The position numbers and the translations under genes were made by a program. Under the pieces are notes generated by a model, which had not been told where the DNA came from, made no database searches, and was given only the letters and a program-made list of their open reading frames with translations. Below are positions 4,236-64,000 of a DNA stretch of 64,000 bases, in pieces. Positions within the stretch are counted from its first letter, which is position 1. Every line of letters starts with the position of its first letter. Source of the stretch: Candidatus Zhuqueibacterota bacterium (GTDB lineage: Bacteria; SM23-31); contig JBHPLC010000001.1 of assembly GCA_042564455.1 (NCBI GenBank), positions 23,172 to 87,171 on the forward strand. Reading direction: 5' to 3'.

Positions 4236-4895
4236 ATGACGATCGGCCTTACAAAACGCCAGAAGGAAATATTGGAATTTATCCAATGGAAGTTAACCGA
4301 CCAGGGTTATCCTCCGAGTTTCAGAGAGGTTGCCGCCCATTTTGGTATAAGATCGACAAACGGAGTAAAAGTCCACTATGATGCGCTGGAGAAAAAAGGA
4401 TATATTCGAAGAAATCCCCGTCTTGCAAGAGGTATTGAGCTGACTGAACTTGCCGGAGCACCGTCTCCGGCCGATACTGCCCCGGGATTATACAGTATTC
4501 CTCCCTCAGATGTCAGCCACGTCCCGGTAATAGGCAGGGTTGCTGCCGGAGCACCGATACTTGCTGAAGAAAATCTTGACGGATATGTAGTTGTTGATAA
4601 TTCATTTATTCATGGTGACGGTGTATTTGCTCTTGTTGTTAAGGGTGAAAGTATGAAGGATGCAGGGATTTTTCACAGTGATTATGTGCTTGGTAAGCCC
4701 GCCTCTACCTATTTTCCCGGTGATATTGTTGTTGCAATAATAGGAGATGAAGCCACGGTAAAGCGTTATTATCCCGAAGGAGGACGTGTAAGGCTGGAAC
4801 CTGCAAACCAGGCTTACGGACCAATAATTGTTGAAGAAAATATGGCGGACTTCCGTATTGCGGGAAAAGTTATCGGCGTTATGCGCCGGATGTGA
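4236..4895 (+). CDS. lexA: LexA repressor (S24 peptidase)
   Basis: N-terminal winged HTH 'LTKRQKEILEFI...GYPPSFREVA', cleavage-site region 'VAAGAP', catalytic 'GESM' serine and a 'VKRY' lysine context. Ends in TGA. Confidence 0.93.
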   Translation: MTIGLTKRQKEILEFIQWKLTDQGYPPSFREVAAHFGIRSTNGVKVHYDALEKKGYIRRNPRLARGIELTELAGAPSPADTAPGLYSIPPSDVSHVPVIGRVAAGAPILAEENLDGYVVVDNSFIHGDGVFALVVKGESMKDAGIFHSDYVLGKPASTYFPGDIVVAIIGDEATVKRYYPEGGRVRLEPANQAYGPIIVEENMADFRIAGKVIGVMRRM

Positions 4896-4947
4896 TGTTT
4901 TTTCGGTATGAGCAGGTTTTATCTGTGTTGATTATGGAGCAGTTTCT

Positions 4948-5202
4948 ATGATGTACGAAGACATATTTCAAACAGTAGACGTAATTTCGCTTTTTCAGCA
5001 TGGTAAGTTAATTCCCCTGAGATTTAAGTGGAATGAGCGTGCTTATAAAATTTCAAAAATTAACGGTGGATGGGTTAGTGATGAGGGCACCAATCGATAT
5101 TACCATTTCTCAGTAATGGCTGATGGTCCCGATTGTTATGAATTGACATTTGATCTGCGTAACATGACATGGGAGCTTTCCCGTGTCTGTATGGATGGAT
5201 AA
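4948..5202 (+). CDS. Small hypothetical protein (84 aa) between lexA and dinB
   Basis: ORF with GGAG about 10 nt upstream. It is tightly packed between lexA and dinB on the same strand. I recognise no family. Confidence 0.5.
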   Translation: MMYEDIFQTVDVISLFQHGKLIPLRFKWNERAYKISKINGGWVSDEGTNRYYHFSVMADGPDCYELTFDLRNMTWELSRVCMDG

Positions 5203-5217
5203 AAAAATGAGAAAAAA

Positions 5218-6486
5218 ATGAGCTGGCACCCGCCCGAAGAGGTAAAAAATAGTCTCCCGGCAAGAAGAATCCCGAATATAGACGACAGAAAAAGAACAAA
5301 GCAGACAGACAGAAGAATAGCGCATATAGATATGGATGCATTCTTTGCAGCTGTAGAACAGCGGGATAATCCGGCTTTGAGAGGCAAACCTGTTATAGTG
5401 GGAGGAAAAGCAGGAGAAAGAGGAGTCGTATCAACCTGCTCATATGAAGCAAGAGAATACGGCGTTAGATCAGGAATGTCGTTAACAGAAGCACAAAGAT
5501 TATGTCCTCACGGTGAATATGTACGAACTCACGGAAAAAAATATACATATACAGCAGTTCAGCTGATTGGAATATATCATAAATATACTCCGGTAGTCGA
5601 ACCGGTTAGTATCGATGAGGCATACCTGGATATTACAGGCTGCAGCAAAATATATGAGTCGGAAGAGAAATTTGGAAAAACAATTAAAAAAGAGATTGAA
5701 AACAGGACAGGTCTGACCGGAACTGTCGGGATAGCACATAATAGAATATACGCAAAGCTGGCTACAGGAATGGAAAAACCTGACGGGCTGACTATAATAA
5801 ATAAAAGGAAAATTCCAGATAGAGTATATCCTTTACCGGTTGAAAAATTATGGGGAATAGGAGCGAGTACTCAAAAAACTTTAAATAAATTAAAAATAAT
5901 TACGATAGGAGACCTTGCAAACTGCCCGGTAAACATCCTGAAAAAATATTTTGGAATAAACGGGGAGCATTTATCTCTGGTTGCAAAAGGAGAAAGCAGT
6001 TCGGAAATAATAAACAATGATAACAGAGAAGATGAAAAATCAGTGGGAAATGAGAGGACCTTTGCCGTAGATGAGACAAATATTGATATAATAATGAAGT
6101 GGCTGATGAAATTATCTCAAAAGGTCGGCAGAAGACTCAGGAAAGCCGGATTCGGAGGAAAAACCGTTACTTTCAAGCTTAGATATTCCGATTTTGAAAC
6201 TCTTACTCACAGGGAGACATTTCCAGGTCTGATGTGGGATGACAAAGAAATATATAATGCAGGGAAGATGCTTTTTGAACAGGTCTACAAAACAGGAAGA
6301 CCGGTAAGATTGATCGGAATATCTGTTTCAAAATTAATCAGGCTGGTTTTCAGCGATAATAATTTAATTCATCAGGGGGATCTTTTTGAATCAGAAAATA
6401 AAAAGCGGAAGGTTACTCCGGTTATGGATAAATTGAGAGATAAATACGGTGAGAAGATCATATCGAGATTCAGTGGTTTGACCTGA
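5218..6486 (+). CDS. dinB: DNA polymerase IV (Y-family)
   Basis: 'IAHIDMDAFFAAVEQRDNPALRGKPVIVGG', 'SIDEAYLDIT' and the little-finger region. The only in-frame ATG gives a ~30-aa N-terminal extension before the conserved start motif. Ends in TGA. Confidence 0.9.
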   Translation: MSWHPPEEVKNSLPARRIPNIDDRKRTKQTDRRIAHIDMDAFFAAVEQRDNPALRGKPVIVGGKAGERGVVSTCSYEAREYGVRSGMSLTEAQRLCPHGEYVRTHGKKYTYTAVQLIGIYHKYTPVVEPVSIDEAYLDITGCSKIYESEEKFGKTIKKEIENRTGLTGTVGIAHNRIYAKLATGMEKPDGLTIINKRKIPDRVYPLPVEKLWGIGASTQKTLNKLKIITIGDLANCPVNILKKYFGINGEHLSLVAKGESSSEIINNDNREDEKSVGNERTFAVDETNIDIIMKWLMKLSQKVGRRLRKAGFGGKTVTFKLRYSDFETLTHRETFPGLMWDDKEIYNAGKMLFEQVYKTGRPVRLIGISVSKLIRLVFSDNNLIHQGDLFESENKKRKVTPVMDKLRDKYGEKIISRFSGLT

Positions 6487-12857: not shown

Positions 12858-13970
12858 ATGAGAAAAAGCTATTTTCCGGTCTGCTTTATATTCCTTTCTA
12901 TAATTTTATTTTCCTGTGCTGCTGAAAAAGTTGTTATTGAACAGGATATTCACTTAACAACGGTTGAGCAAAAAACAGACTTTCCGGGTAATGCAAACAA
13001 AATTTGGTTTTCAGAAGCGGATCCAAAAATATTTTATACTGATCCGCATAATGGAAGTTTTTATATTTCAAATAATGAAGGAAGAACCTGGACGAGAAAA
13101 ACTACATCGAAAAAGTTATTTAGAGTTAAAGGAGATGTTAGTAATCCCAAAGTTTTTTACGCTTATGAAAATGGTTGAAAAAATTCTTTTCTCTATAAAT
13201 CCACAGATAGTGGATCAAATTGGACTAATATAAGAGAAGTATGTAAAATTAGAGGCTTGTATTCAGATTATAACACAGTTATTGTCTTTTTTAAAGATAA
13301 GAATGGGTATCTTGAATTATCAAAAAGTATAAATGGAGGTTTGTCATGGGAAGAGAATACATTAGCCGGCAGAAAGGGGGATATTACAAAAATAGTTATA
13401 GATCCTCTTAATAAAACCAATATTTATATATTAGGCTCTTATTCAATAGGATCCAGAAATATCCCAATTATTTATAAAAGTACTGACAAGGGTGAAATAT
13501 GGCATTCAATCCTTGATATAAATACTGAAAGGAAACTTAAAGCATTGAATTTTGCAGATAATGTCTATTTCCGTAATGATTTTCTTGTAATTCAAGAAAA
13601 GAAGACTGAAAATGAACTGTCATTAAGAAATTTTTGTATATTTGATATGGTATTTGATCCGAGTGACAATAAGTCTATTTATGTATCAACATCAGCCGGT
13701 CTAATAAAATCCGCAGATTCAGGGAAGACCTGGCATGCAGTTAACAATTTGCCATTCACAAAGCTGTTTTTATCAGACAAAAAAGTTTTATATGGAGTAC
13801 ATAGCAGAGAAGTAAAAAAATCATACGATTATGGAAAAAACTGGGTAGTGGTTTTTTCTGGTGAAAACACAAGGCTCTTCAGCATTAAATCTTTATCAGG
13901 AAATAACATAACAAACAAACTGTATATATCTACAAGCAATGGATTGAAAATAATTGATTTTGAAAAATGA
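12858..13970 (+). CDS. BNR/Asp-box beta-propeller lipoprotein, single in-frame TGA at 13176-13178 (recoding candidate or pseudogene)
   Basis: Lipobox 'ILFSC'. Track ORFs 12858..13178 and 13257..13970 are in the same frame with only one TGA between them. The intervening codons encode 'KNSFLYKSTDSGSNWTNI' (Asp-box SxDxGxxW). Further Asp boxes follow: KSTDKGEIW, KSADSGKTW, KSYDYGKNW. Confidence 0.6.
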
Positions 13971-13990
13971 AAATCTTCACAGGGGGCAAA

Positions 13991-15088
13991 ATGAAGAATA
14001 AGACTTATGTGTTGTTATGCCTTATGATGACTGTTTTTATTTTTAACTGCAGTACATCAAAGGAATTTGTGGCAAAAGAACTTGATACCGGACAGTGGTT
14101 AAACATTAATGGTCCGATATGGATATTATCGACTTCGGCTGAAAATCCTGAAGTAATGTATGCCTGCAGCGGTAAAAATATTTGCAGATCCGATAATAGG
14201 GGTTTGGATTGGACAAAATTTACAGCTCCAAAAACTTTTGTTGTAATGAGTACAGATATAAAAAACCCTAATGTTGTTTTTGCCGCCCCAGGCGGTTGAG
14301 GCAACACTGATGTTTATAAAACCACAGATGGTGGTTCAGCATGGAAAGCAGTAAAAAGTCTGTGTTATATCAGAGATATCGCTTCTGCCGGTAATAAAGT
14401 GTATGTGGCCTACAGGAATAAAGACAACTCTTTCCCGGCGATAGCGACCAGCAAAGACGGGGGACAATCCTGGAAAGATATAATAATTGGAAAAGCAACG
14501 GGTAATCCGGCTGCGATATACCTTGATCCCAAAAATTCAGAAAATGTATTTGTTGCTGGAAACATCAGGAAGAGCGGCAGAAATGTCGGAGTAATCTACA
14601 AGAGCACCGATGGTGGATTGAATTGGAGAGAAGTATATATTAATGAACTTGATAATGACCAGAGTATAAGTGATCAGTTTCAGTATGGTGATCCGATCAG
14701 AAATATTGTTAATGGACAGTCAGGTGTGGTGTTTTTAAGAACCTTGCCTGTGTCAACCGTACATTATTTTGTTGACATCTGCGTTAATCCGAAAAAACCT
14801 AGTGAAATCTATGCGGCAGCAGGAAACGGATTGTTCATATCAGAGGATTTTGGTGATAACTGGAAAAAGTTTCGCGCTGGAAAGTTCTCAAAAGTATGTG
14901 TATCCGAAGAGGGAGAAGTTTTTGGTTTAATGGACAATAGTGTGATTTACCTGGATAATTCAGGAAGTGAATGGAGAAAAATAAATACCATTAAATCATC
15001 AAATCAATATACAGATTTTATAGTTGATTCAGAGAACAGGAAATTAATTTTAGGTTCCTACGGAGGAATTCAGACAATAAATTATTAA
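13991..15088 (+). CDS. BNR/Asp-box beta-propeller lipoprotein paralog, single in-frame TGA at 14297-14299 (recoding candidate or pseudogene)
   Basis: Lipobox 'IFNCS', with AGGGGG upstream of ATG 13991. Track ORFs 13967..14299 and 14399..15088 share a frame. The intervening codons encode 'GNTDVYKTTDGGSAWKAV'. Further Asp boxes follow: TSKDGGQSW, KSTDGGLNW, ISEDFGDNW. Confidence 0.6.
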
Positions 15089-22175: not shown

Positions 22176-23867
22176 ATGGGAGATCAACCATATGTTATCG
22201 GTGTCGATTTCGGGACCGATTCCGTCCGGTCAATTATTGTCGACACGTCGAATGGTCACGAAATAGCTTCATCGGTAAAGATGTTCACCCGGTGGAACAG
22301 AGGAGAATTTTGTGAACCGGAAAAGAACCAATTCAGACAGCATCCGCTTGATTACATTGAAGGCCTTGAAGATTCCATTAAAGAAGCACTCTCACAGTCA
22401 CCAAAGGGCATGAATGAAAAAATAGCCGGAATTTCGGTGGATACAACAGGTTCAACTCCATGTGCAGTTGACGAGAAAGGAATACCGCTCGCTTTGACCG
22501 GAGGATTTGAAGATAATCCAAATGCTATGTTTGTCTTATGGAAAGACCACACGGCTGTTGAAGAAGCTGAAAGAATTAACCATACTGCCAGATCATGGGG
22601 CGGGATCGATTATACTAAATATGTTGGAGGTGTTTATTCTTCCGAATGGTTCTGGGCAAAGATCCTGCATATTGTCAAAGAGGATGAAAAAGTAAGGGAA
22701 AAAGCATTTTCGTGGGTAGAACACTGTGACTGGATACCGGCACTCCTGACCGGGATAACCGATCCGCTGATCTTGAAGAGAAGCCGCTGTGCGGCAGGGC
22801 ACAAGGCAATGTGGCATGAATCATTCAATGGACTTCCATCCGAGGAGTTTCTGACTGCAGTAGATCCGCTGATTGGTGGACTTAGGGATAGACTCTATAA
22901 GGATACATGGACATGTGATGTCCAGGCAGGAAGGTTGTCTGATGAATGGATAAAACGACTGGGATTGCCGGAGAATGTTTCTGTCGGAATCGGCTCATAT
23001 GATGCTCATCTTGGTGCAGTAGGTGCTCAGATCGAACCGTATATCCTGTGTAAAGTAATAGGGACTTCCACTTGTGACATGCTGACAGCTCCCACTGCAG
23101 ATATAGGGGATAAATTAGTCAGGGGAATATGCGGACAGGTAGACGGTTCGATCATTCCCGGAATGCTGGGAATGGAAGCCGGACAGTCCGGTTTCGGGGA
23201 CGTCTATGCGTGGTTCAGGGATCTTCTGATGTATCCGGTCGAAAAAATCCTTTCAAAAAATCCATTTCTGGAATCATCTGTAAAACAGAAGATCGAGGAA
23301 GATTTTACAGAAAAGATAATTCCTGAGCTATCCCGGGAAGCAGAAAACATTCCCATTGGTGAATCAGGTATAGTAGCGCTGGACTGGATGAACGGAAGAA
23401 GGACACCTTATGCCAATCAGCGCTTAAAAGGAGCAGTAACCGGAATAAATCTGGGTACGGATGCACCAAAAATATTCAGATCGCTTGTCGAAGCGACTGC
23501 TTTCGGAGCTAAGAAGATAGTTGACAGATTTACAAAAGAAGGAATTGACATAAAAGGTATTATTGCACTGGGGGGTATACCGAAAAAATCCCCGTTTATT
23601 ATGCAGGTGCTTTGTGATGTTCTGAATATTCCGATCAGGATCGCAAAATCTGAGCAGACATGTGCTCTCGGAGCAGCAATGGCAGCTGCAGTATGCTCCG
23701 GAATATACTCGACCATTGAAGATGCACAAAAAACGATGGGGAACGGTTTCGAAAAGGAATATATACCGGACCCTGAAAAGGCTCATCAATATGGCATCCT
23801 CTACGAAAGCTATTCAAAACTTGCTGATTTTATTGAAAATGAATTCACGAGGACAGAGAATGAGTAA
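22176..23867 (+). CDS. araB: Ribulokinase (FGGY family)
   Basis: 563 aa with 'YVIGVDFGTDSVRS' and FGGY C-terminal motifs. Followed by araD with an 8-nt overlap. Confidence 0.88.
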   Translation: MGDQPYVIGVDFGTDSVRSIIVDTSNGHEIASSVKMFTRWNRGEFCEPEKNQFRQHPLDYIEGLEDSIKEALSQSPKGMNEKIAGISVDTTGSTPCAVDEKGIPLALTGGFEDNPNAMFVLWKDHTAVEEAERINHTARSWGGIDYTKYVGGVYSSEWFWAKILHIVKEDEKVREKAFSWVEHCDWIPALLTGITDPLILKRSRCAAGHKAMWHESFNGLPSEEFLTAVDPLIGGLRDRLYKDTWTCDVQAGRLSDEWIKRLGLPENVSVGIGSYDAHLGAVGAQIEPYILCKVIGTSTCDMLTAPTADIGDKLVRGICGQVDGSIIPGMLGMEAGQSGFGDVYAWFRDLLMYPVEKILSKNPFLESSVKQKIEEDFTEKIIPELSREAENIPIGESGIVALDWMNGRRTPYANQRLKGAVTGINLGTDAPKIFRSLVEATAFGAKKIVDRFTKEGIDIKGIIALGGIPKKSPFIMQVLCDVLNIPIRIAKSEQTCALGAAMAAAVCSGIYSTIEDAQKTMGNGFEKEYIPDPEKAHQYGILYESYSKLADFIENEFTRTENE

Positions 23868-24561
23868 ATACAAAGAATTGAAAGAAAAAGCCTGGAAATG
23901 TAATCTTGATCTTCATGAAAAAGGAGTTGTGATCTATACTTTCGGTAATGTTAGTGCATTCGATAAAAACGAGAAGGTGTTTGCGATAAAACCGAGCGGA
24001 ATTCCCTATGATAAGTTGAGACCTGAAGATATGGTTGTCGTGGATCTGAAGAATACAATAATAGACGGGGATCTGCGTCCCTCATCAGATACGAAGATCC
24101 ACAGCGTGCTGTACAGAAATTTTCCTGAAATAGGGGGGGTTACACACACTCATTCAACGTATGCGGTTGCCTGGGCGCAGGCGATGAAACCCGTTCCAGT
24201 GCTTGGGACAACACATGCTGACCATCTCAGCAGGGATATTCCCTGTACTCAGATGATGAGTGATGATGCAATAAGCGGAGACTATGAGGAAGAAACCGGT
24301 TTGTTAATTGTTGACACCTTCAGGGATATTGATCACAAAGAGACAGAAATGGTACTTGTTGCCGGACACGGTCCTTTTACATGGGGAGAAACACCCGAAG
24401 AGGCTGTTTATAACAGTGTTATGCTTGAAGAGCTGGCTAAGATGGCTGCACTTACTTACAATATAAATCCTGATACTCCCCGGTTAAAAGATACATTGAT
24501 CGATAAACATTACCGGCGCAAGCATGGTAAAGATGCATACTACGGCCAGGAAGGAAAGTAA
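23860..24561 (+). CDS. araD: L-ribulose-5-phosphate 4-epimerase (class II aldolase fold)
   Basis: Start taken at ATG 23860 (MSKYKELKEKAWKCNLDL...). 'IKPSGIPYD' and 'VTHTHSTYA' match AraD. The track ORF from 23662 has a spurious N-terminal extension overlapping araB. Confidence 0.88.
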   Translation: MSKYKELKEKAWKCNLDLHEKGVVIYTFGNVSAFDKNEKVFAIKPSGIPYDKLRPEDMVVVDLKNTIIDGDLRPSSDTKIHSVLYRNFPEIGGVTHTHSTYAVAWAQAMKPVPVLGTTHADHLSRDIPCTQMMSDDAISGDYEEETGLLIVDTFRDIDHKETEMVLVAGHGPFTWGETPEEAVYNSVMLEELAKMAALTYNINPDTPRLKDTLIDKHYRRKHGKDAYYGQEGK

Positions 24562-49243: not shown

Positions 49244-52225
49244 TTATCTTCCGCTTACTAACGGATCTGCGCGAATAGTTAACTTGTTAGTGAATGACTG
49301 ACCGAATACTGTCATTGTAACACCGTATTCACCAACACCCGCTCTGGAGCCGCCGCGTCCGCGTCCACCACGTCCGCCGCCGCCCATTATTTCCCTCTGT
49401 TTCGCCTGGAATTCATTATATCTGCGAAGGTCTGTTCCTACATTTCTGGCATCATTGAGCAGCTGCTGAAGTTGTGAGCGCTGTGCACCTGTAGCCTGCT
49501 GAATCTGTTGTTCGATCTGTTGTTGTGCCTGAGCTATAGTCTGTTCTATCTGCCGGGCTGATGGATCGAACGCCATATCCCACGTAAGCCTGTTAATACC
49601 GGCTTCACCTGAAATAGTAAACGTACGTTTATTTGTGCCTGTAACGTCGGTTATCACTATATCTACCGGAGCTGGAGATCTTAAATAATAGCTGATTACA
49701 GGATTGTTCGGTGGATTCTCACCATAGAAACGGAATGTGCCGTATCTTGTTCCGGCAGTTTGATTCATCCATTGTGTTGAAGTTCTGCTTTCAAATAACT
49801 GGGCATCAGTTCCCAGTACCTCTTCGGTTGCCTGCTGTAAAGAAGTAATGTCATCCAGTATCCAGATACCTCGGCCGTGTGTCGCAGCAATAAGGTCGCC
49901 ATCACGCGGATGGATCAACAGATCATGTATGGCAACAGTAGGCAGATATCCGTTGTCCTTATCCTGCAAGTTGAGTTTTGACCATGTTTGTCCTTTATTC
50001 AAGGAGAAAAAGCAGAAAAACTCGCTTCCGGCAAATAGGAGGTTCGGATTCTTAAGATCTTCTTTGATGACATACATACAGTTCCCGAATTCAATTCCGT
50101 TTGTTATTTTCGTCCATGACTGACCGTAATCGGTAGTCATGAATACCCAAACGTCAAAATTGTCGCTTCTGTGGCCGTCAAAAGTCACATAACATGTGCC
50201 CTCATCGAAATGAGATGTCTCAACGCGGCTTACCCATATACCATCAGGAACTTCCGGAATTCTACTTCTGACATTCGTCCACATTTTCCCGCCGTTGCGT
50301 GTTATCTGCACGTTCCCGTCATCTGTTCCGGCCCAGATAAGAGCAGGATTGATAGAAGATTGAGAAATAGTGATAATGTTGCAGTGGTTTTCAGCGCCGG
50401 TAGCATCTCTTGTGATGCCTCCTGTATTTCTGTCTGTCTTTACCGGATCATTTGTCGTCAGGTCCGGGCTGATTATTTCCCAGTGATCGCCCCGGTCAAC
50501 GGATTTAAAAAGATAATTGCCTCCGAAGAAAATCGTATGCGGATTGTGCGGAGATAAAACTATCGGTGCGCTCCAGTTGAACCGGAAAGGATTTCTTCCT
50601 CCTCCTCGGCCGCCTCTCTGTCCCTGTTGAGCTCTTAGCTCTGCCGGCGGTGCAGGAGCTTCCTGTATGTAATCGCTGTAATTGGTGATATTATTCCGGC
50701 TCGGGCGAATACCTGAACTTTGGCGTGTTTCAACATTTACACGTGAAACCGAACCACCCTGGCTTTCCACATACCATGTGCGCCAGTCCAAAGGATCAGC
50801 CTGTGCATGGAATCCGTCGCCGCCGCCGATACTGTACCACTCACTGGTGAATATAGCGCTGTTCCGGCTTTTTGATGGACCGATCCATGTACCGTTATCC
50901 TGCAATCCGCCGGCAACATAATATGGATCGCGCATATCCGCACCGACTGCATAGAATTGACTGATCACGTAATTGTCAAAAAAGGTATAGTTTTGATGAT
51001 CATGAGTGATCGAAACACCGCCGTCACTACCTATATAATATCTATCGGGATTGGTCGGATCAAGCCACAAGGCGTGATAGTCGCCGTGATGGCCGCCGGG
51101 GCCATTGATCAGTGTTTTCCCTCCGTCCAATGATATCTGGTGGCCTTGCGCAAGTAAATACACTTTTTTGTCATCAGATGGATTGATGTAAATATGACTG
51201 TAATAGAACGGCCTGTTCTGGTAGCGGTTCATGAGTGTCCAGTTGTTACCGCCATCCTCAGAACGATAAACACCTGATCCCAGCCTGGACAAGTCATTGT
51301 ATTCCGGATTAGGAACTTGTGTTCCGTCTGCATTCCTGATCTGCCGAGAAGGTTGAAAAGTATGCTCAAGGAAAGCCATGACGACTTTTGGATTGCTTGC
51401 GGCAATTGCAAGGCCAATTTTTCCTGTCTGGCCTTCGGGAAGTCCCTTGGTAAGTTTCTTCCAGGAGTTTCCGCCGTTCGTTGTTTTATAGATACCTCCG
51501 TTTCCTTCACCGCCGTTGGGTCCGCCGGAGTCAAAACGCCAGGGTGTGCGGAGTCTTTCCCACATCGAAACAAAGAGTTCATTCTTGTTCTTTGGATTGA
51601 TGATCAGGTCTATCGCTCCTGTCTTGCCGTCATCAGGAAGGCCGTTGGTAAGCTTTTCCCAGGTTTGACCGCCGTCTGTTGTTTTGTAGAGACCTCGGTC
51701 ACCTGAATAACCCCATAGGTGTCCCGGTGCGGCAACCCAGACGATATCCGGGTTGTCAGGATGTATGATGATTCTGCCGATAGCATGGGTGTCTTCGAGT
51801 CCCACTATATTGAACGTTCTGCCGCCGTCAGTTGATTTGTATACACCGTTACCCCAGGCGATACTGTTACGCGGATTTCTCTCGCCTGTACCTACCCAGA
51901 TGATATCGGGATTTTTCTGACTGATTGCAATGTCACCAATGGATGCGGCGCCGTATTTATCAAATATCGGCTCGAATGTCGTTCCCGCATTTGTCGATTT
52001 CCACACACCGCCGGAAGCCGAAGCGACCAGTACGTGAGTAAAATCATCATTTAGCGCCTCAATATCCGAAATGCGGCCGGACATATTAGCTGGCCCGATA
52101 TTACGCCACTGCAGATCCTTAATATAGTTTTCCTGAGCAGTCTGCGCAAATGCCAGACCGGCAAAAAGAATTAGACATAATACTGCAGCTATTTTGATGC
52201 TGATACGGATGTTATGATTATACAT
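49244..52225 (-). CDS. Sortilin/VPS10-like BNR-repeat protein (third paralog) with Gln-rich and RGG-rich C-terminal segments
   Basis: 993 aa with a signal peptide. 'GGVWKSTNAGTTFEP', 'YKSTDGGRTFN' and 'YKTTDGGQTWEK'. Low-complexity segments 'QQQIEQQIQQATGAQRSQLQQLL' and 'GGGGRGGRGRGGSRAG'. Confidence 0.75.
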   Translation of the reverse strand: MYNHNIRISIKIAAVLCLILFAGLAFAQTAQENYIKDLQWRNIGPANMSGRISDIEALNDDFTHVLVASASGGVWKSTNAGTTFEPIFDKYGAASIGDIAISQKNPDIIWVGTGERNPRNSIAWGNGVYKSTDGGRTFNIVGLEDTHAIGRIIIHPDNPDIVWVAAPGHLWGYSGDRGLYKTTDGGQTWEKLTNGLPDDGKTGAIDLIINPKNKNELFVSMWERLRTPWRFDSGGPNGGEGNGGIYKTTNGGNSWKKLTKGLPEGQTGKIGLAIAASNPKVVMAFLEHTFQPSRQIRNADGTQVPNPEYNDLSRLGSGVYRSEDGGNNWTLMNRYQNRPFYYSHIYINPSDDKKVYLLAQGHQISLDGGKTLINGPGGHHGDYHALWLDPTNPDRYYIGSDGGVSITHDHQNYTFFDNYVISQFYAVGADMRDPYYVAGGLQDNGTWIGPSKSRNSAIFTSEWYSIGGGDGFHAQADPLDWRTWYVESQGGSVSRVNVETRQSSGIRPSRNNITNYSDYIQEAPAPPAELRAQQGQRGGRGGGRNPFRFNWSAPIVLSPHNPHTIFFGGNYLFKSVDRGDHWEIISPDLTTNDPVKTDRNTGGITRDATGAENHCNIITISQSSINPALIWAGTDDGNVQITRNGGKMWTNVRSRIPEVPDGIWVSRVETSHFDEGTCYVTFDGHRSDNFDVWVFMTTDYGQSWTKITNGIEFGNCMYVIKEDLKNPNLLFAGSEFFCFFSLNKGQTWSKLNLQDKDNGYLPTVAIHDLLIHPRDGDLIAATHGRGIWILDDITSLQQATEEVLGTDAQLFESRTSTQWMNQTAGTRYGTFRFYGENPPNNPVISYYLRSPAPVDIVITDVTGTNKRTFTISGEAGINRLTWDMAFDPSARQIEQTIAQAQQQIEQQIQQATGAQRSQLQQLLNDARNVGTDLRRYNEFQAKQREIMGGGGRGGRGRGGSRAGVGEYGVTMTVFGQSFTNKLTIRADPLVSGR

Positions 52226-57009: not shown

Positions 57010-58557
57010 GTGAATATGAATTCTGCTGGTTTAAAAATATATTTTTGCTGTTGTTGGTTTCTTTTTACACTGCTTATATCCGTATACTCATGCAAAAAAT
57101 CACCAACCGAGCCTGTTAACTCAAAATCGGTAATTAGGAGTATTTCTGCCGATCCATCCTATTTAGACTATCTTTACTCGGACACATCAGCTTATTCACT
57201 TATAACTGTTTCCGCATATGATCCAGATGGTGATAAACTTACTTTCAGCTTTTCAGCATCAAAAGGTGAAATACGTGATGTGTCGGACAGCACTGCAAAG
57301 TACTTTCCTGAAGAATTCACTGGTATGGCAGAAGTCACCTGCAGTGTGAGTGATGGGGAATTGACCATTGAGGATGAAGTAGGTATTTTCGTAAATTACA
57401 AGGAGAATATTCCGCCTAGAATAAAAGGATATTTCAGGCATCCGCATAATACGTTCATTGATGAATTTGGAGTAGTTAATCCGGTTGTATTGGAGGTAAT
57501 CGCAGAGGATTCTAATAATGATAAGTTGACTTTTACATTCGAGGCAGAACAGGGAATTTTATCTGAGCAAGACAGCAATACAGTAGAATATACCGCACCG
57601 GCAGGAGTTGGAGATTATCTAATAAACTGTATTGTGACTGACTGATTTGATTCTGATTCAGGGAATTTAACAGTAAATGTATCAGAATTATCGTACCATC
57701 TTCAGCATTACACAAGGATAGCATTTGCTTCCGACAGGTCAGGGAATTATGAAATATATACTATGCGTCCTGACGGATCGGACCTTAAGAGATTAACTAC
57801 CAGTCCAGGTTCAGATACTGAGCCTGACTGGTCTCCTGATGGATCAAAGATCGTTTTTACATCGACACGCAGCGGAAGCAGTGATATATGGTTAATGGAT
57901 GCGGACGGATCTAATCAGACTCAAATTACAGATATTATTCATTCAGAATTTTATCCTCGTTGGTCACCTGACGGATCGAAAATAATGTTTACAGTTGATA
58001 GTTTTCTTGCGATAGATTTACATTTAGTAAATCCTGATGGTTCAAATATAGAATTTACTCAGTTCAGAAGATATCCATATGCAACAAGATTTGGGGATTG
58101 GTCTCCTGATGAATTAAATGTTGTATTTTCATCACGCGTTTATAGTGAGTTTAATTTATTCAAATCCAATATTAATGGTAATACATGGATCCAAGTGACT
58201 TTTGATGATAAAAGAGAATACTACCCTTCCTGGTCACCTTTATGAGATGAGATCGTATTCAGATCGGAAAGAACAGAGGGTTATTCTACAAGGGATATAT
58301 TTAAGATAAATACAGACGGAAGCGGATTGGTAAATTTATCTAATACCGAAGTTCATGATGATCATCCTGCCTGGTCACCGGATGGACAGATGATAGTTTT
58401 CGATTCAATGAGGGACTGGCCACCGGGATATGTAGATCCTCACGTTATTATATACACGGAAATATATATGATGAAATCAGACGGGACTCAACAAACGAGG
58501 CTGACTTTTGTTAAATCCCGGAATATAACACCTGCCTGGTCACCGATAATTAAATAG
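57010..58557 (+). CDS. Lipoprotein with two Ig-like domains and a TolB-like WD40 propeller; two in-frame TGAs (57643-57645, 58243-58245)
   Basis: Lipobox 'VYSCK'. Track ORFs 57010..57645, 57763..58245 and 58327..58557 are all in one frame and are separated only by single TGAs. The codons after each TGA continue the repeats ('IAFASDRSGNYEIYTMRPDGS', 'DEIVFRSERTEG...INTDGSG'). WSPDG repeats run throughout. Confidence 0.6.
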
Positions 58558-61533: not shown

Positions 61534-61712
61534 ATTGATTTTCTTTTATCTTTAACATAAATTCTTTTTTGTACTCTTAATCTCAATATAATATTTGAAT
61601 AACAGTACAGATATAGTATTAATCAATTCAAGTATTCGTTTTATCTCCTTCACATCTTTTAAGAATATATTTAATTGAATTATCTCAGTTGAATGCAAAA
61701 TCCGAGTATTTT

Positions 61713-62903
61713 ATGAAGAATAAGATAATTGATATTGCGGATACCCACACCAATGATATTATAAAATTCCTTCGTGAAATAACAGCAATACCATCTTTTA
61801 GCGGAGAAGAAGGTCAGGTTATTGATAGAATCAAATCTGAAATGGAAAAGATCGGCTTTGATGATATTTTTGTTGATCCTTTGGGTAATCTGTTGGGACG
61901 TTTAGGTTCTGGTGAGAAGATCCTTGCGTTTGACGGTCATTGTGATACTGTCGGGATCGGAAATCAGGACCTATGGACTTGTGATCCGTTTAAAGGCGGA
62001 TTTGAGAAAGGTTTGATTTTCGGAAGAGGATGCTGTGATCAAAAAGGTGGCATAGCATCTATGATCTATGCAGCAAAGATATTAAAGGAGATCGGAATTC
62101 CTGAAAACAAAACAATATGGTTTGTCGTTTCGGTTCTTGAAGAAGAATTTGAGGGTTTGAACTGGAAATATATTATCGAAGAGGACAAAATTATCCCGAA
62201 TGCGGTTATATTGACCGAACCCTCAAATTTACAGATAAGAACGGGGCATAAGGGAAGGATAGATATAAAGATCAGGACGGAGGGAATATCCTGTCATGGA
62301 TCTACTCCGGAACTTGGGGAAAATGCGATATATAAAATGGTTCCTATTGTCACTGAAATTGAACAGCTGAATATTAACCTTCCTGAAAAACCGGTTTTCG
62401 GAAAAGGAAGTGTTGCTGTTACTGAGATCAAATCTACTGCTCCGGCAATAAATGCTGTTGCAGACAGCGCAGAGATCCATTTGGACAGAAGATTGACTTC
62501 GGGAGAAACTTTGGAAAGCTCTATAAAGGAACTTGAAGAACTTCCGTCGTTCAAAAATGGTAAGGCTAAGATCAAAATTCCGGCATTTGAAGTAAAAAGC
62601 TACACAGGTCTCAGGTATAATGCCGAGGCTTTTTATGCAACATGGGATATGCAGAAGGACCATCCGCTTGTAAAATCCGCAATTAAAACATATCAGGATA
62701 TTTTTAAGGTTGCAGCTGAGACCGGAATTTGGAATTTCTCAACAAACGGTGTGGCTACAAAAGGCATTTTTGATATCCCGACAATAGGTTTTGGGCCTGG
62801 TGACGATAAATATGCGCATACTCCTGACGAACAGATCCCTGTTGACCATTTGAGCATAGCGGCCGGTTTTTATACACTTTTGGTTCATAATTGTGAAATT
62901 TGA
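61713..62903 (+). CDS. ygeY: M20-family metallohydrolase, YgeY-like (selenium-metabolism-linked hydrolase family)
   Basis: Collinear by recall with E. coli YgeY: 'FLREITAIPSFSGEE', 'MEKIGFDDIFVDPLGN', 'FDGHCDTVGIGN', 'GRGCCDQKGG', 'ISCHGSTPELGENAIYKM', 'WNFSTNG' and 'GFGPGDDKYAHTPDE'. Start taken at ATG 61713; the track uses TTG 61689. Confidence 0.65.
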   Translation: MKNKIIDIADTHTNDIIKFLREITAIPSFSGEEGQVIDRIKSEMEKIGFDDIFVDPLGNLLGRLGSGEKILAFDGHCDTVGIGNQDLWTCDPFKGGFEKGLIFGRGCCDQKGGIASMIYAAKILKEIGIPENKTIWFVVSVLEEEFEGLNWKYIIEEDKIIPNAVILTEPSNLQIRTGHKGRIDIKIRTEGISCHGSTPELGENAIYKMVPIVTEIEQLNINLPEKPVFGKGSVAVTEIKSTAPAINAVADSAEIHLDRRLTSGETLESSIKELEELPSFKNGKAKIKIPAFEVKSYTGLRYNAEAFYATWDMQKDHPLVKSAIKTYQDIFKVAAETGIWNFSTNGVATKGIFDIPTIGFGPGDDKYAHTPDEQIPVDHLSIAAGFYTLLVHNCEI

Positions 62904-62978
62904 TTTTTACATGTAATTAAAAATAATTTAAGTTATGTAATTTATTTTGTTTAAGATTTCGAACTTTTAGGAGAAAAA

Positions 62979-64000
62979 ATGGATTTTAAAGATCTTTCGT
63001 TTTCTGATGCACCTAACATAAAAACTTCTCCTCCGGGACCGATATCAAAAGAATATCTGACTTACCAGTCAGCTAATGAAGGGAATGCCGTTTCATATCC
63101 GAAAGGAATGCCGATGGCTCTTAAGCGGGCTAAAGGTGCGACCGTTGAGGATGTTGACGGTAATATCTATATAGACTTTTTTGGAGGTGCCGGAGTAATA
63201 AACATTGGCCATGGAAATCCGGAAGTCTTAAAAGTAGCACATGAACAGATTGATGAGTTAACTCATTGCCTTGATTTTTCGAATCCCGGTAAAAAGACAA
63301 TGGTCGAAACACTGCTTCAGATCCTTCCTGATGAAATTGACCGGGTGTTTTTTGGTGCGCCGACCGGATCAGATGCAGTGGAAAGTGCTATTAAACTGGC
63401 AAAATATAATACGAAAAAGGTGCCTGTAATTGCTTTTGAGGGCTCATATCACGGTATGACTGCATACGCACTTTCCCTTTGCAGCGGAGATGCATTTAAG
63501 GAAGATTTTCTTCCTCTTATGCCCGAAATTCATTTTGCTCCTTATTCATATTGCTACAGGTGTCCTTTCAAAAAAGAAAGAGATAAATGTGAGATAGAAT
63601 GTGCTCAATATTTTGAACATATTATTGAGGATCCCCATTCGGGAGTGTCACACCCGGCAGCAATTATCGTTGAGCCTATTCAGGGAGAGGGAGGTTCAAT
63701 AGTGCCTCATGAAGGATTCATTCCAAAACTGCGTGAAATTTGTGACAAATATAATGTACTGATGATCCATGATGAAATTCAGGCAGGTTTTTGCCGTACC
63801 GGTAAAATGTTTTCTTTTGAACATACTAAAACCGTACCTGATATAATCACTCTGAGCAAAGCACTGGGCGGTATCGGATTTCCCATATCTGCAATAGCTT
63901 ATAAAAAAAAGCTTGACACATGGCCCCCGGGTAAACATATCGGGACTTTCAGAGGTAATGTTGTCGCATACTCATGCGGTGCAGCCGGTATTTCTTTCAT
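62979..64000 (+). CDS. Class III pyridoxal-phosphate aminotransferase (GABA/ornithine aminotransferase family), 3' end outside window
   Basis: Not in the ORF track because there is no stop in the window. AGGAG lies upstream of ATG 62979. My translation gives 'DVDGNIYIDFFGGAGVINIGHGNP', 'EPIQGEGG', 'LMIHDEIQAGFCRTGKMF' and 'DIITLSKALGG' (PLP lysine). Confidence 0.8.
   Translation, partial: MDFKDLSFSDAPNIKTSPPGPISKEYLTYQSANEGNAVSYPKGMPMALKRAKGATVEDVDGNIYIDFFGGAGVINIGHGNPEVLKVAHEQIDELTHCLDFSNPGKKTMVETLLQILPDEIDRVFFGAPTGSDAVESAIKLAKYNTKKVPVIAFEGSYHGMTAYALSLCSGDAFKEDFLPLMPEIHFAPYSYCYRCPFKKERDKCEIECAQYFEHIIEDPHSGVSHPAAIIVEPIQGEGGSIVPHEGFIPKLREICDKYNVLMIHDEIQAGFCRTGKMFSFEHTKTVPDIITLSKALGGIGFPISAIAYKKKLDTWPPGKHIGTFRGNVVAYSCGAAGISF

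What the first reader, a model, noticed from the sequence alone, without database searches (positions are those of the whole stretch)
12858..15088. Two tandem, diverged BNR-propeller lipoprotein paralogs each carry one in-frame TGA at the same alignment column
Each gene is a single continuous frame except for one TGA (13176-13178 and 14297-14299). The ORF-track fragments on either side share a frame. The codons between the TGA and the track's downstream start encode a canonical Asp-box blade (...VFYAYENG*KNSFLYKSTDSGSNWTNIREVCKIR... and ...VVFAAPGG*GNTDVYKTTDGGSAWKAVKSLCYIR...). The two proteins are clearly diverged, with many substitutions in my by-eye alignment. Even so, the TGA is at the identical column, and the ~230 downstream codons contain no further stop or frameshift in either copy. 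A gene killed by a nonsense mutation before or after duplication would not be expected to keep that. Only the N-terminal pieces carry lipoprotein signals (LFSC, IFNC), so independent expression of the C-terminal pieces makes little sense for a secreted propeller. TGA is a bona fide terminator elsewhere in the window: lexA and dinB end at their conserved C-termini, and the Mo-oxidoreductase TGA is followed 1 nt later by the partner's ATG. This therefore looks like site-specific UGA read-through or recoding (selenocysteine, suppressor tRNA or near-cognate decoding), not a genome-wide code change. In later blades of the same proteins the equivalent column is Arg encoded by AGA (GSRNIPIIYKSTD, SGRNVGVIYKSTD).
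Basis: partly seen in the sequence, partly recalled or inferred. Interest (0 to 1): 0.85.

Follow-up and report, generated by a model that had tools for sequence, protein, structure and literature searches.

The report
Shared in-frame TGA, two propeller lipoproteins
Two very diverged neighbouring lipoprotein genes of an uncultured KSB1 bacterium each carry a single stop codon (TGA) at exactly the same position, followed by the same small RNA hairpin, which most likely marks a new selenocysteine-containing protein family, though this could not be proven from the window alone.

Summary
BNR1 (12858-13970) and BNR2 (13991-15088) are tandem Ycf48/BNR-type beta-propeller lipoprotein genes. They are only 26% identical. 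Each is one continuous frame broken by one TGA (13176, 14297) at the same alignment column, in the middle of blade 2.

TGA is a genuine terminator here: LexA, DinB, DmsA-like, DASS and YgeY all end on TGA at the end of their family profiles. No long gene carries an internal TGA, so a code change is excluded.

New findings:
- A 17-nt hairpin (6 bp, loop AGAUR) starts 20 nt after the TGA in both genes, with one compensatory pair. It fits the loose bacterial SECIS geometry and is stronger than synonymous-codon resampling predicts (p=0.008 and 0.06).
- A Cys at +22 is conserved.
- KSB1 genomes commonly carry selA/B/D.
- A third lipoprotein gene (57010-58557, PD40/TolB-like) has two more in-frame TGAs. 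These have no hairpin and sit at Arg and Gly columns of relatives.
- No orthologue of BNR1/2 exists in any collection searched, so there is no Cys/Sec test.

Best reading: Sec-type recoding of the BNR pair (about 0.45). Rivals are Sec-independent leaky UGA and parallel nonsense mutations.

The parts
12858..13970 (+). BNR1: conceptual full-length lipoprotein gene (370 codons). Ycf48/BNR/Sortilin-type beta-propeller with about 6 Asp-box blades. Ends on a terminal TGA at 13968-13970.
   Evidence: NCBI annotates it as two proteins, MFC1553024.1 (N-terminal, 106 aa) and P0244 (C-terminal, 237 aa).
12858..12917 (+). BNR1 lipoprotein signal peptide, with lipobox LFSC (Cys20).
   Evidence: and the translation.
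13176..13178 (+). In-frame TGA of BNR1 (codon 107, context GGT TGA AAA), in the loop between the second and third strand of blade 2.
13199..13215 (+). 17-nt hairpin AUCCAC-AGAUA-GUGGAU, beginning 20 nt after the TGA (26 nt to the apical loop). Candidate SECIS-like recoding element. It overlaps the codons for KSTDSGS.
   Evidence: Energy -6.4 kcal/mol, in the top ~5% of 17,202 coding positions. Resampling synonymous codons gives p=0.008. Consensus fold with BNR2.
13242..13244 (+). Cys129 (TGT), 22 residues after the TGA. It is the only Cys of mature BNR1 that is conserved in BNR2.
   Evidence: Absent from distant homologues.
13991..15088 (+). BNR2: conceptual full-length lipoprotein gene (365 codons), 26% identical to BNR1. 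Lipobox IFNC (Cys19 at 14045-14047).
   Evidence: NCBI fragments are MFC1553026.1 (102 aa) and MFC1553027.1 (227 aa).
14297..14299 (+). In-frame TGA of BNR2 (codon 103, context GGT TGA GGC), at the same alignment column as in BNR1.
14320..14336 (+). 17-nt hairpin AACCAC-AGAUG-GUGGUU, at the same distance from the TGA as in BNR1. The second base pair is changed on both sides (U-A in BNR1, A-U here).
   Evidence: Energy -5.9 kcal/mol. Resampling p=0.06. One compensatory pair out of 6.
14363..14365 (+). Cys125 (TGT) of BNR2, 22 residues after the TGA, aligned with Cys129 of BNR1.
57010..58557 (+). Third lipoprotein gene (lipobox VYSC): two Ig-like (Big_9/cadherin-like) domains followed by a PD40/TolB-type propeller. 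One frame with two internal TGAs. Relevant as a comparison case and probably a different phenomenon.
57643..57645 (+). In-frame TGA (CIVTD*FDSDSG). The column is Arg in the 63%-identical paralogue from the same MAG, and Gly in the gene's own first Ig repeat. No SECIS-like hairpin.
58243..58245 (+). In-frame TGA (SWSPL*DEIVF). The column is the Gly of the WSPDG motif in 6 of 8 homologues and in the gene's own repeats. No hairpin.

Best explanation
BNR1 and BNR2 form a two-gene operon. Each encodes one full-length, exported, lipid-anchored Ycf48/BNR-type beta-propeller. Their single UGA is not a terminator in situ but a recoded sense codon that has been kept by selection since before the two genes diverged.

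The most likely mechanism is bacterial selenocysteine insertion. When the ribosome reaches the UGA, the 17-nt hairpin 20 nt downstream (apical loop AGAUR, 26 nt from the UGA) would recruit SelB carrying Sec-tRNA(Sec). SelB would outcompete RF2 and place Sec in the loop between strands B and C of blade 2. By general propeller geometry this loop lies on the same ('top') face as the D-to-A linker, which carries the conserved Cys 22 residues later. A Sec/Cys pair (selenylsulfide or metal site) is therefore conceivable.

Shown here: the conserved TGA column, coding conservation on both sides of it, the conserved hairpin, and the status of TGA as a true stop elsewhere in the window.

Inferred only: that the inserted residue is Sec, that the hairpin is a SECIS, that this genome has the Sec machinery, and that Sec and Cys+22 are close in space.

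The two TGAs in the PD40 gene are best treated separately, as recent nonsense changes (CGA or AGA to TGA, and GGA to TGA) in a redundant paralogue.
For: 1. The TGA sits at the same column in paralogues only 26% identical, inside the best-conserved block of the alignment. Only a codon that cannot be replaced, or a selected stop, should survive that much divergence.
2. The TGA cuts blade 2 in half. The 27-34 codons between it and the next possible start encode the conserved Asp-box YK[ST]TD.GS.W. Translation must therefore pass through it, and only the N-terminal pieces have export signals.
3. A 6-bp/5-nt-loop hairpin lies at an identical distance in both genes, with one compensatory U-A/A-U pair.
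   - It is in the top ~5% of 17,202 coding positions.
   - It is stronger than 99.2% and 93.9% of synonymous recodings of the same peptides.
   - Only 3 of 38 other Asp-box motifs in the window form a hairpin this strong.
4. The geometry fits three of the four criteria of the published bSECIS model: loop of 3-9 nt, stem of 4-16 bp, G in the first two loop positions, and 16-37 nt spacing (PMC13188914).
5. The phylum uses Sec. selA/selB/selD are predicted in KSB1 MAGs of all clades but one (PMC9012183). Sec-containing hydrogenases are predicted in KSB1 (PMC13582414). The window itself carries a YgeY selenium-metabolism-linked hydrolase.
6. Exported and lipoprotein selenoproteins have precedent in the SAO system (bioRxiv 10.1101/2022.07.06.499078).
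7. A Cys at +22 is conserved in both paralogues and absent from distant homologues.
Against: - No Cys-containing homologue exists at the column. In fact there is no close homologue at all, whereas nearly all known selenoproteins have Cys forms.
- The position is a variable surface loop of a non-redox fold.
- The hairpin alone (-6.4 and -5.9 kcal/mol) misses the -7.5 kcal/mol criterion. Its loop (AGAUR) lacks the usual G[G/U]. Generic folding tests are weak (z = -0.75 and -0.39; p = 0.05-0.25).
- Part of the stem complementarity comes from the Thr (ACN) and Gly (GGU) codons of the Asp-box.
- The excess of identical codons near the TGA drops to p=0.06 after correcting for codon bias.
- The same window holds two more in-frame TGAs in another lipoprotein gene, with no hairpin and at Arg and Gly columns. 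Some Sec-independent source of in-frame TGA therefore exists in this genome.
- The Sec machinery of this particular MAG could not be examined.
Confidence: 0.45

Rival explanations
1. Sec-independent UGA read-through or suppression. UGA would be decoded at some efficiency by a near-cognate tRNA (Trp, Arg or Cys) or by a dedicated suppressor tRNA, in competition with RF2. All four in-frame TGAs (BNR1, BNR2, and two in PD40) would then be tolerated, or used to throttle expression of non-essential surface lipoproteins.
For: - One mechanism covers all four TGAs in three lipoprotein genes.
- All four stops are TGA, the leakiest stop, with no TAA, TAG or frameshift.
- The columns correspond to single-step neighbours of TGA in relatives: Arg, Gly, and Arg(AGA) in later BNR blades when counted without gaps.
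- Three of the four in-frame TGAs are followed by a purine, whereas 5 of 9 true TGA stops are followed by T.
Against: - It does not explain why TGA persists at the same column in paralogues 26% identical. It also does not explain why both carry the same hairpin, unless the hairpin is itself a read-through stimulator.
- TGA-terminated genes show no excess of nearby back-up stops.
- No tRNA with a UCA anticodon is in the window.
- Programmed read-through is rare in bacteria.
Confidence: 0.2
2. Gene inactivation. The TGAs are ordinary nonsense mutations in dispensable, fast-turning-over surface lipoprotein genes (for example, loss-of-function alleles fixed under phage or predator pressure). The shared column in BNR1 and BNR2 would be a coincidence or a local mutational hotspot (GGT-NGA to GGT-TGA).
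For: - The PD40 gene has two stops, as pseudogenes do, at columns that are Arg and Gly in functional relatives.
- Its paralogue from the same MAG (P0126, not labelled partial) ends where the conserved Trp of WSPD is expected.
- Both BNR sites share the hexamer GGTTGA.
- No orthologue shows that the TGA is old.
Against: - The chance that a second single nonsense TGA falls on the homologous codon is about 1 in 45 to 1 in 370.
- Four of four stops being TGA has a probability of about 0.01 under a neutral nonsense spectrum.
- There are no frameshifts, and motifs downstream are intact.
- The conserved hairpin is unexplained.
- GGTCGA is not depleted relative to GGTTGA, so there is no sign of a deamination hotspot.
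Confidence: 0.2
3. Assembly or sequencing error. The true codons are sense codons (for example GGA, CGA or TGG), miscalled in the MAG consensus.
For: The source is a metagenome-assembled genome. Only one contig in about 15 billion catalogued proteins carries these sequences, so there is no independent assembly to confirm them.
Against: - Four substitution errors would all have to create TGA, two of them at homologous codons of dissimilar DNA.
- No shared sequence motif surrounds the four sites.
- All other genes in 64 kb are intact, with no frameshifts.
Confidence: 0.05
4. Genome-wide reassignment of UGA (code 25, UGA=Gly, or code 4, UGA=Trp).
For: One or two of the four TGAs align with Gly.
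Against: - At least five genes end on TGA exactly at the end of their family profiles.
- There are only 4 internal TGAs in about 18,000 codons, and none in the largest genes.
- The organism is a KSB1 bacterium with large catabolic gene clusters, not a reduced candidate-phyla-radiation lineage.
Confidence: 0.02

Closest known systems
Bacterial selenoprotein genes decoded by SelB and an intragenic SECIS hairpin (for example fdhF). The discovery logic is the Sec/Sec or Sec/Cys pair flanked by conserved coding sequence.
   Same: In-frame UGA with protein conservation on both sides. The UGA is conserved between diverged homologues. A small hairpin lies 16-37 nt downstream with a G early in the loop. 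The host phylum carries selA/B/D.
   Different: No Cys-form homologues. The site is a variable loop of a non-redox beta-propeller rather than a CxxU-type active site. The hairpin is weaker than the usual threshold and lacks the common G[G/U] loop motif. The Sec machinery of this genome was not seen.
Extracytoplasmic and lipoprotein selenoproteins of the SAO system (SaoB, SaoC and SaoX variants; Haft, bioRxiv 10.1101/2022.07.06.499078).
   Same: Signal-peptide or lipoprotein-anchored proteins that are annotated as two tandem fragments, because the upstream one ends on a TGA. Sec lies outside the cytoplasm, possibly for binding rather than catalysis.
   Different: Those proteins are ABC substrate-binding folds with CU or CC motifs and abundant Cys homologues. 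Here the fold is a Ycf48-like propeller with a lone Cys 22 residues away.
Ycf48/HCF136 photosystem II assembly lipoprotein and BNR/Sortilin-Vps10 propellers.
   Same: Best solved-structure match (8am5_S Ycf48, E=6.6e-6). Same Pfam and NCBIfam families. N-terminal lipid anchor and Asp-box blades.
   Different: Only about 20-25% identity. No photosynthesis context. None of these families is known to contain an in-frame UGA.
Genetic code 25 (UGA=Gly) of Absconditabacteria and Gracilibacteria.
   Same: Some of the in-frame UGAs sit at Gly columns.
   Different: UGA is still a terminator here, and internal UGAs are extremely rare (4 in about 18,000 codons).
Low-level natural UGA read-through by tRNA-Trp in bacteria (Bacillus subtilis, E. 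coli; from my own knowledge).
   Same: It is UGA-specific, needs no special machinery, and would tolerate nonsense changes in low-demand genes.
   Different: It is not known to be conserved at a fixed column across ancient paralogues, or to be paired with a conserved downstream hairpin.

Membership tests
Bacterial selenoprotein gene (SelB/SECIS-dependent UGA=Sec) | In-frame UGA flanked on both sides by conserved coding sequence, and conserved at the same column in homologues (Sec/Sec pair). | tested here: met
   BNR1 and BNR2 are 26% identical. The TGA lies in a gap-free conserved block, with 263 and 262 clean codons downstream.
Bacterial selenoprotein gene (SelB/SECIS-dependent UGA=Sec) | bSECIS element: apical loop of 3-9 nt, upper stem of 4-16 bp, G in the first two loop positions, 16-37 nt from the UGA to the loop, and MFE <= -7.5 kcal/mol (PMC13188914). 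| tested here: inconclusive
   Loop of 5 nt (AGAUA, AGAUG), stem of 6 bp, spacing of 26 nt: all met. The hairpin alone gives -6.4 and -5.9 kcal/mol. With a lower stem it gives -8.3 to -13.6. The loop lacks G[G/U]. The specific-hairpin tests give p=0.008 and 0.06, but generic MFE tests are not significant.
Bacterial selenoprotein gene (SelB/SECIS-dependent UGA=Sec) | Homologues with Cys at the Sec column. | tested here: not met
   None of 24 distant homologues has Cys there. The column is a variable loop. No closer homologue was found among 5.8 billion clusters, 1.84 billion representatives, GTDB genomes or JGI contigs.
Bacterial selenoprotein gene (SelB/SECIS-dependent UGA=Sec) | selA, selB, selD and tRNA-Sec in the same genome. 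| not testable with these tools
   Only 64 kb is available, and the MAG is not in the contig collections. The only tRNA in the window is tRNA-Met. Indirect support: KSB1 MAGs mostly have selA/B/D, KSB1 Sec-hydrogenases are predicted, and YgeY is in the window.
Bacterial selenoprotein gene (SelB/SECIS-dependent UGA=Sec) | The same criteria applied to the PD40 gene TGAs (57643, 58243). | tested here: not met
   The paralogue has Arg at the first column. Homologues have Gly at the second. There is no qualifying hairpin.
Reassigned genetic code (code 25 UGA=Gly, or code 4 UGA=Trp) | UGA is no longer used as a terminator. | tested here: not met
   LexA, DinB, DmsA-like, DASS and YgeY end on TGA at the end of their profiles. 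11 of 40 ORFs end in TGA.
Reassigned genetic code (code 25 UGA=Gly, or code 4 UGA=Trp) | Internal UGA is scattered through most genes at columns of one amino acid. | tested here: not met
   There are four internal TGAs in three genes and none in the other ~40 genes, including those of 700-1000 codons. The columns are Arg, Gly or undetermined.
Nonsense-inactivated pseudogene | The lesion is lineage-specific (not shared with paralogues), often multiple, with decay downstream. | tested here: inconclusive
   BNR pair: the lesion is shared at one column, is single, and the downstream Asp-boxes are intact, so the feature is not met. PD40 gene: two lesions not shared with the paralogue, so the feature is met.
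Ycf48/BNR/Sortilin-Vps10 beta-propeller | Repeated Asp-box (S-x-D-x-G-x-x-W) blades that match the family profiles. | tested here: met
   PF15902 at 1e-13 and 2e-14, PF14870 and PF02012. Six and five Asp-box motifs. Ycf48 is the best PDB match. Scores are below the equivalog cut-offs, so this is membership of the superfamily, not of Ycf48 itself.

The most novel reading that the evidence does not exclude
UGA is an ambiguous codon in this KSB1 bacterium. It would terminate most genes, yet be decoded as a standard amino acid by a Sec-independent route (a suppressor tRNA, or efficient near-cognate decoding) at several sites in surface lipoprotein genes. That would be a living intermediate stage of stop-codon reassignment, or a programmed read-through system that sets the dosage of exported propeller proteins.
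Probability: 0.12. Interest if true: 0.85.

Novelty: new member of a known kind. Interest (0 to 1): 0.55.

Why it matters
If the BNR pair is decoded with selenocysteine, it would be a new selenoprotein family with three unusual traits:
- an exported, lipid-anchored, non-redox beta-propeller fold;
- no cysteine-form relatives;
- a minimal 17-nt insertion signal.

Methods that find selenoproteins through Cys/Sec pairs would miss such a family entirely. Annotation pipelines currently split it into four 'hypothetical' fragments.

If the UGAs are instead read through without selenium, the locus would be a rare bacterial example of conserved programmed read-through, or of ambiguous stop-codon decoding.

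Either way, the genome (locus-tag prefix ACFL7D) is a good test case. One look at its sel genes, tRNAs and genome-wide count of in-frame TGAs would separate the hypotheses.

Tried and rejected
- **Source contig beyond the window.** Exact-protein look-ups for GroEL, YgeY, P0001 and P0126 were all 'not on record'. The MAG is not among the GTDB representatives.
- **Orthologue searches.** These covered BNR2 against 5.8 billion clusters, a post-TGA profile against 1.84 billion representatives and JGI metagenome contigs. Only the window's own fragments and relatives of 30% identity or less were found, so no Cys/Sec or TGA-conservation test was possible.
- **Downstream fragment of the PD40 paralogue P0126.** It was not found. 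Its stop codon and its Arg codon are therefore unknown.
- **Structure prediction of the full-length protein with Cys or Gly at the TGA.** The Sec-to-Cys+22 distance could not be measured.
- **Rfam.** No match except tRNA-Met.
- **Frameshifting.** Rejected because the frame is the same on both sides of the TGA.
- **Peptidyl-tRNA hopping over the stop.** Rejected because only BNR2 has a Gly landing codon (GGU UGA GGC). BNR1 has AAA.
- **Termination followed by reinitiation, or a split two-chain propeller.** Rejected for three reasons. No start codon lies between the TGA and the conserved Asp-box. The TTG overlapping GGTTGA is out of frame. The C-terminal pieces have no export signal.
- **Horizontal transfer from a code-25 donor.** Not supported. 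The GC content of the three genes (0.30-0.38) lies within the spread of the window (0.30-0.54).
- **5-methylcytosine hotspot at GGTCGA.** No depletion relative to GGTTGA.
- **Back-up stops after TGA terminators.** No enrichment.
- **Excess of identical synonymous codons near the TGA.** p=0.02 on a naive test, but only 0.06 after correcting for codon bias. I do not rely on it.
Full report
**Source and setting**

The window comes from a 112,764-bp contig of an NCBI metagenome-assembled genome named 'candidate division KSB1 bacterium'. The gene fragments discussed here are exact NCBI proteins: MFC1553024.1 (ACFL7D_00170), MFC1553026.1 (ACFL7D_00180), MFC1553027.1 and MFC1553028.1. The window is 41% G+C.

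The genes around the finding include:
- groES and groEL;
- lexA, dinB, and a DmsA/FdhA-like molybdopterin oxidoreductase with its FeS partner;
- an M28 peptidase and a pair of M16 peptidases flanking the finding;
- an arabinose and arabinan-utilisation cluster;
- three ~900-residue Sortilin/BNR proteins;
- a DASS transporter and a YgeY 'selenium metabolism-linked' hydrolase.

**The observation**

Translating 12858-13970 and 13991-15088 gives two proteins of 370 and 365 residues. Each is interrupted by one TGA, at 13176-13178 and 14297-14299, and both sides are in the same frame. Both proteins begin with lipoprotein signal peptides (LFSC, IFNC). Both match the Sortilin-Vps10, BNR and Ycf48 propeller families. 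The best solved-structure relative is the lipoprotein Ycf48, though the match is weak.

The two proteins are only 26% identical. The TGA nevertheless falls at the same column of a gap-free block, which is the best-conserved part of the alignment. That column lies in the loop between the 'vYAg' strand and the 'GvfkStDGG' strand of blade 2. The stop therefore cuts a blade in half.

The next possible in-frame start is 27 codons downstream in BNR1 and 34 in BNR2. Those intervening codons encode the conserved Asp-box.

**Is TGA a stop in this organism?**

Yes. Eleven of 40 ORFs end on TGA. LexA, DinB, the DmsA-like protein, the DASS transporter and YgeY reach the last positions of their NCBIfam profiles just before it.

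I rescanned all six frames treating only TAA and TAG as stops. No gene other than three contains an internal TGA, and this includes eight genes of 700-1000 codons. A genome-wide code change (code 25 or code 4) is therefore excluded.

The gene at 57010-58557 is a lipoprotein (VYSC). It has two Ig-like domains and a PD40/TolB propeller, and it carries two internal TGAs (57643, 58243) in one frame.

- The first TGA aligns with Arg in a 63%-identical paralogue from the same MAG (P0126 = MFC1553490.1, on another contig). It aligns with Gly in the gene's own first Ig repeat.
- The second TGA aligns with the Gly of the WSPDG motif in 6 of 8 homologues and in the gene's own repeats.
- The paralogue is not labelled partial, yet it ends exactly where the Trp of WSPD is expected. 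I could not obtain its DNA.

These sites are not conserved between paralogues and have no downstream hairpin. They look like single-step changes from CGA or AGA and from GGA. They argue against Sec for that gene. They also show that this genome has some Sec-independent source of in-frame TGA.

**A conserved hairpin after the BNR TGAs**

In both BNR genes a 17-nt hairpin starts 20 nt after the TGA, which puts the apical loop 26 nt from it. The sequences are AUCCAC-AGAUA-GUGGAU at 13199-13215 and AACCAC-AGAUG-GUGGUU at 14320-14336.

RNAalifold returns this hairpin as the only consensus structure. One of its six pairs is changed on both sides, U-A versus A-U.

Statistical support is as follows:
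- The energies (-6.4 and -5.9 kcal/mol) fall in the top ~5% of 17,202 in-frame positions of the window, scored with the same SECIS-like rule.
- When the same peptides are recoded with each gene's own codon usage, a hairpin this strong appears in 0.8% (BNR1) and 6.1% (BNR2) of trials.
- Among 38 other Asp-box motifs in the window, only 3 have a comparable hairpin of any geometry.

There are caveats:
- The stem partly reflects the complementarity of ACN (Thr) and GGU (Gly) codons.
- Generic MFE tests are not significant.
- The hairpin alone misses the -7.5 kcal/mol criterion of the published bSECIS model, and its loop lacks the usual G[G/U]. It does meet the loop-size, stem-length, early-G and 16-37-nt spacing criteria.
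- The excess of identical synonymous codons near the TGA falls to p=0.06 once codon bias is modelled.

**Other evidence bearing on Sec**

- KSB1 MAGs of all clades but one are reported to carry selA, selB and selD (PMC9012183).
- KSB1 is among the phyla with predicted Sec-containing hydrogenases (PMC13582414).
- The window contains a YgeY selenium-linked hydrolase.
- Exported and lipoprotein selenoproteins have precedent, and they too are annotated as split tandem fragments.
- A Cys 22 residues after the TGA is the only Cys of mature BNR1 conserved in BNR2, and distant homologues lack it.
- From general propeller geometry (my inference, not computed), the B-C loop and the D-to-A linker lie on the same face, so a Sec/Cys pair is conceivable.

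Against this, no Cys-form homologue exists. Indeed there is no close homologue of any kind in 5.8 billion clusters, 1.84 billion representatives, GTDB genomes or JGI contigs. The site is also a variable loop of a non-redox fold.

**Weighing the hypotheses**

A stop that arose before the duplication and killed the gene cannot explain 26%-identical copies with intact motifs.

Independent nonsense hits on the same codon have a chance of roughly 1 in 45 to 1 in 370. That model leaves the shared hairpin unexplained.

A general leaky-UGA or suppressor model explains the PD40 TGAs economically. It does not explain why TGA, rather than a sense codon one step away, survives at one column in both BNR genes.

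Sec insertion explains the retention, because Sec can only be written as UGA. It also explains the hairpin and the phylum context. It does need the PD40 TGAs to be a separate event, a young pseudogene with two TGA hits, and it lacks the Cys-homologue signature.

My estimates are:

| Hypothesis | Probability |
|---|---|
| Sec-type recoding of the BNR pair | 0.45 |
| Sec-independent read-through or suppression | 0.20 |
| Parallel inactivation | 0.20 |
| Sequence error | 0.05 |
| Code change | 0.02 |
| Something not considered | remainder |

**Verdict**

The finding is real, non-trivial and currently mis-annotated as four fragments. It is most likely a new member of a known kind: a new selenoprotein family decoded by the known bacterial mechanism. 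The decisive evidence lies outside the window and outside the collections available here. It consists of the sel genes and tRNA-Sec of this genome, the genome-wide inventory of in-frame TGAs, read support, and protein chemistry.

Noticed in passing
57010-58557 (+); TGAs at 57643-57645 and 58243-58245: A third lipoprotein gene (two Ig-like domains plus a PD40/TolB propeller) has two in-frame TGAs in a single frame. The columns are Arg in a 63%-identical paralogue from the same MAG (MFC1553490.1) and Gly of the WSPDG motif in homologues. There is no downstream hairpin. NCBI annotates it as separate 'TolB family protein' fragments.
   Followed up: partly
outside the window: protein P0126 = MFC1553490.1, 64,329-bp contig of the same MAG: The paralogue of the PD40 gene is not labelled partial, yet it ends at residue 368, exactly where the conserved Trp of 'GDWSPD' is expected. 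This may be another in-frame stop at a Trp (TGG) column. The DNA was not obtainable and no downstream fragment was found.
   Followed up: partly
61689-62903 (+): YgeY-family 'selenium metabolism-linked' M20 hydrolase (NF009555, E=2e-148). It is followed by a class-III aminotransferase-like ORF that runs off the window end (62904-64000). This indicates selenium-dependent metabolism in the organism.
   Followed up: no
21122-47839 (+) and 49244-52225 (-): A large plant-polysaccharide (arabinan/arabinose) utilisation cluster. It contains a LacI-type regulator, ribulokinase, AraD, an isomerase-like protein, an SSS transporter, two GH127 beta-L-arabinofuranosidase lipoproteins, an alpha-L-arabinofuranosidase, a melibiase/NPCBM protein, an M61 peptidase and three ~900-aa Sortilin/BNR proteins. 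None of these has an internal TGA.
   Followed up: no
22176-23867 and 23662-24561 (+): The mechanical AraD ORF overlaps the ribulokinase gene by about 200 nt. The AraD profile match starts at residue 70, so the true start is probably an internal ATG near 23870.
   Followed up: no
4236-6486 (+): lexA and dinB lie adjacent, with a small unannotated ORF of about 85 codons between them (4896-5217, MMYEDIFQ...). This looks like an SOS cassette arrangement.
   Followed up: no
window-wide; TGA contexts at 4893, 6484, 6494, 7869, 13968, 31737, 39860, 61280 and 62901 compared with 13176, 14297, 57643 and 58243: Five of nine genuine TGA terminators are followed by T. Three of the four in-frame TGAs are followed by a purine (A, G, G). 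The numbers are too small for significance.
   Followed up: partly
12858-13970, 13991-15088, 57010-58557: None of the three TGA-containing genes uses the Arg codon CGA. This is also the rarest Arg codon in the window (45 of 717). It is compatible with CGA-to-TGA changes, but only about 1 CGA per gene would be expected anyway.
   Followed up: partly
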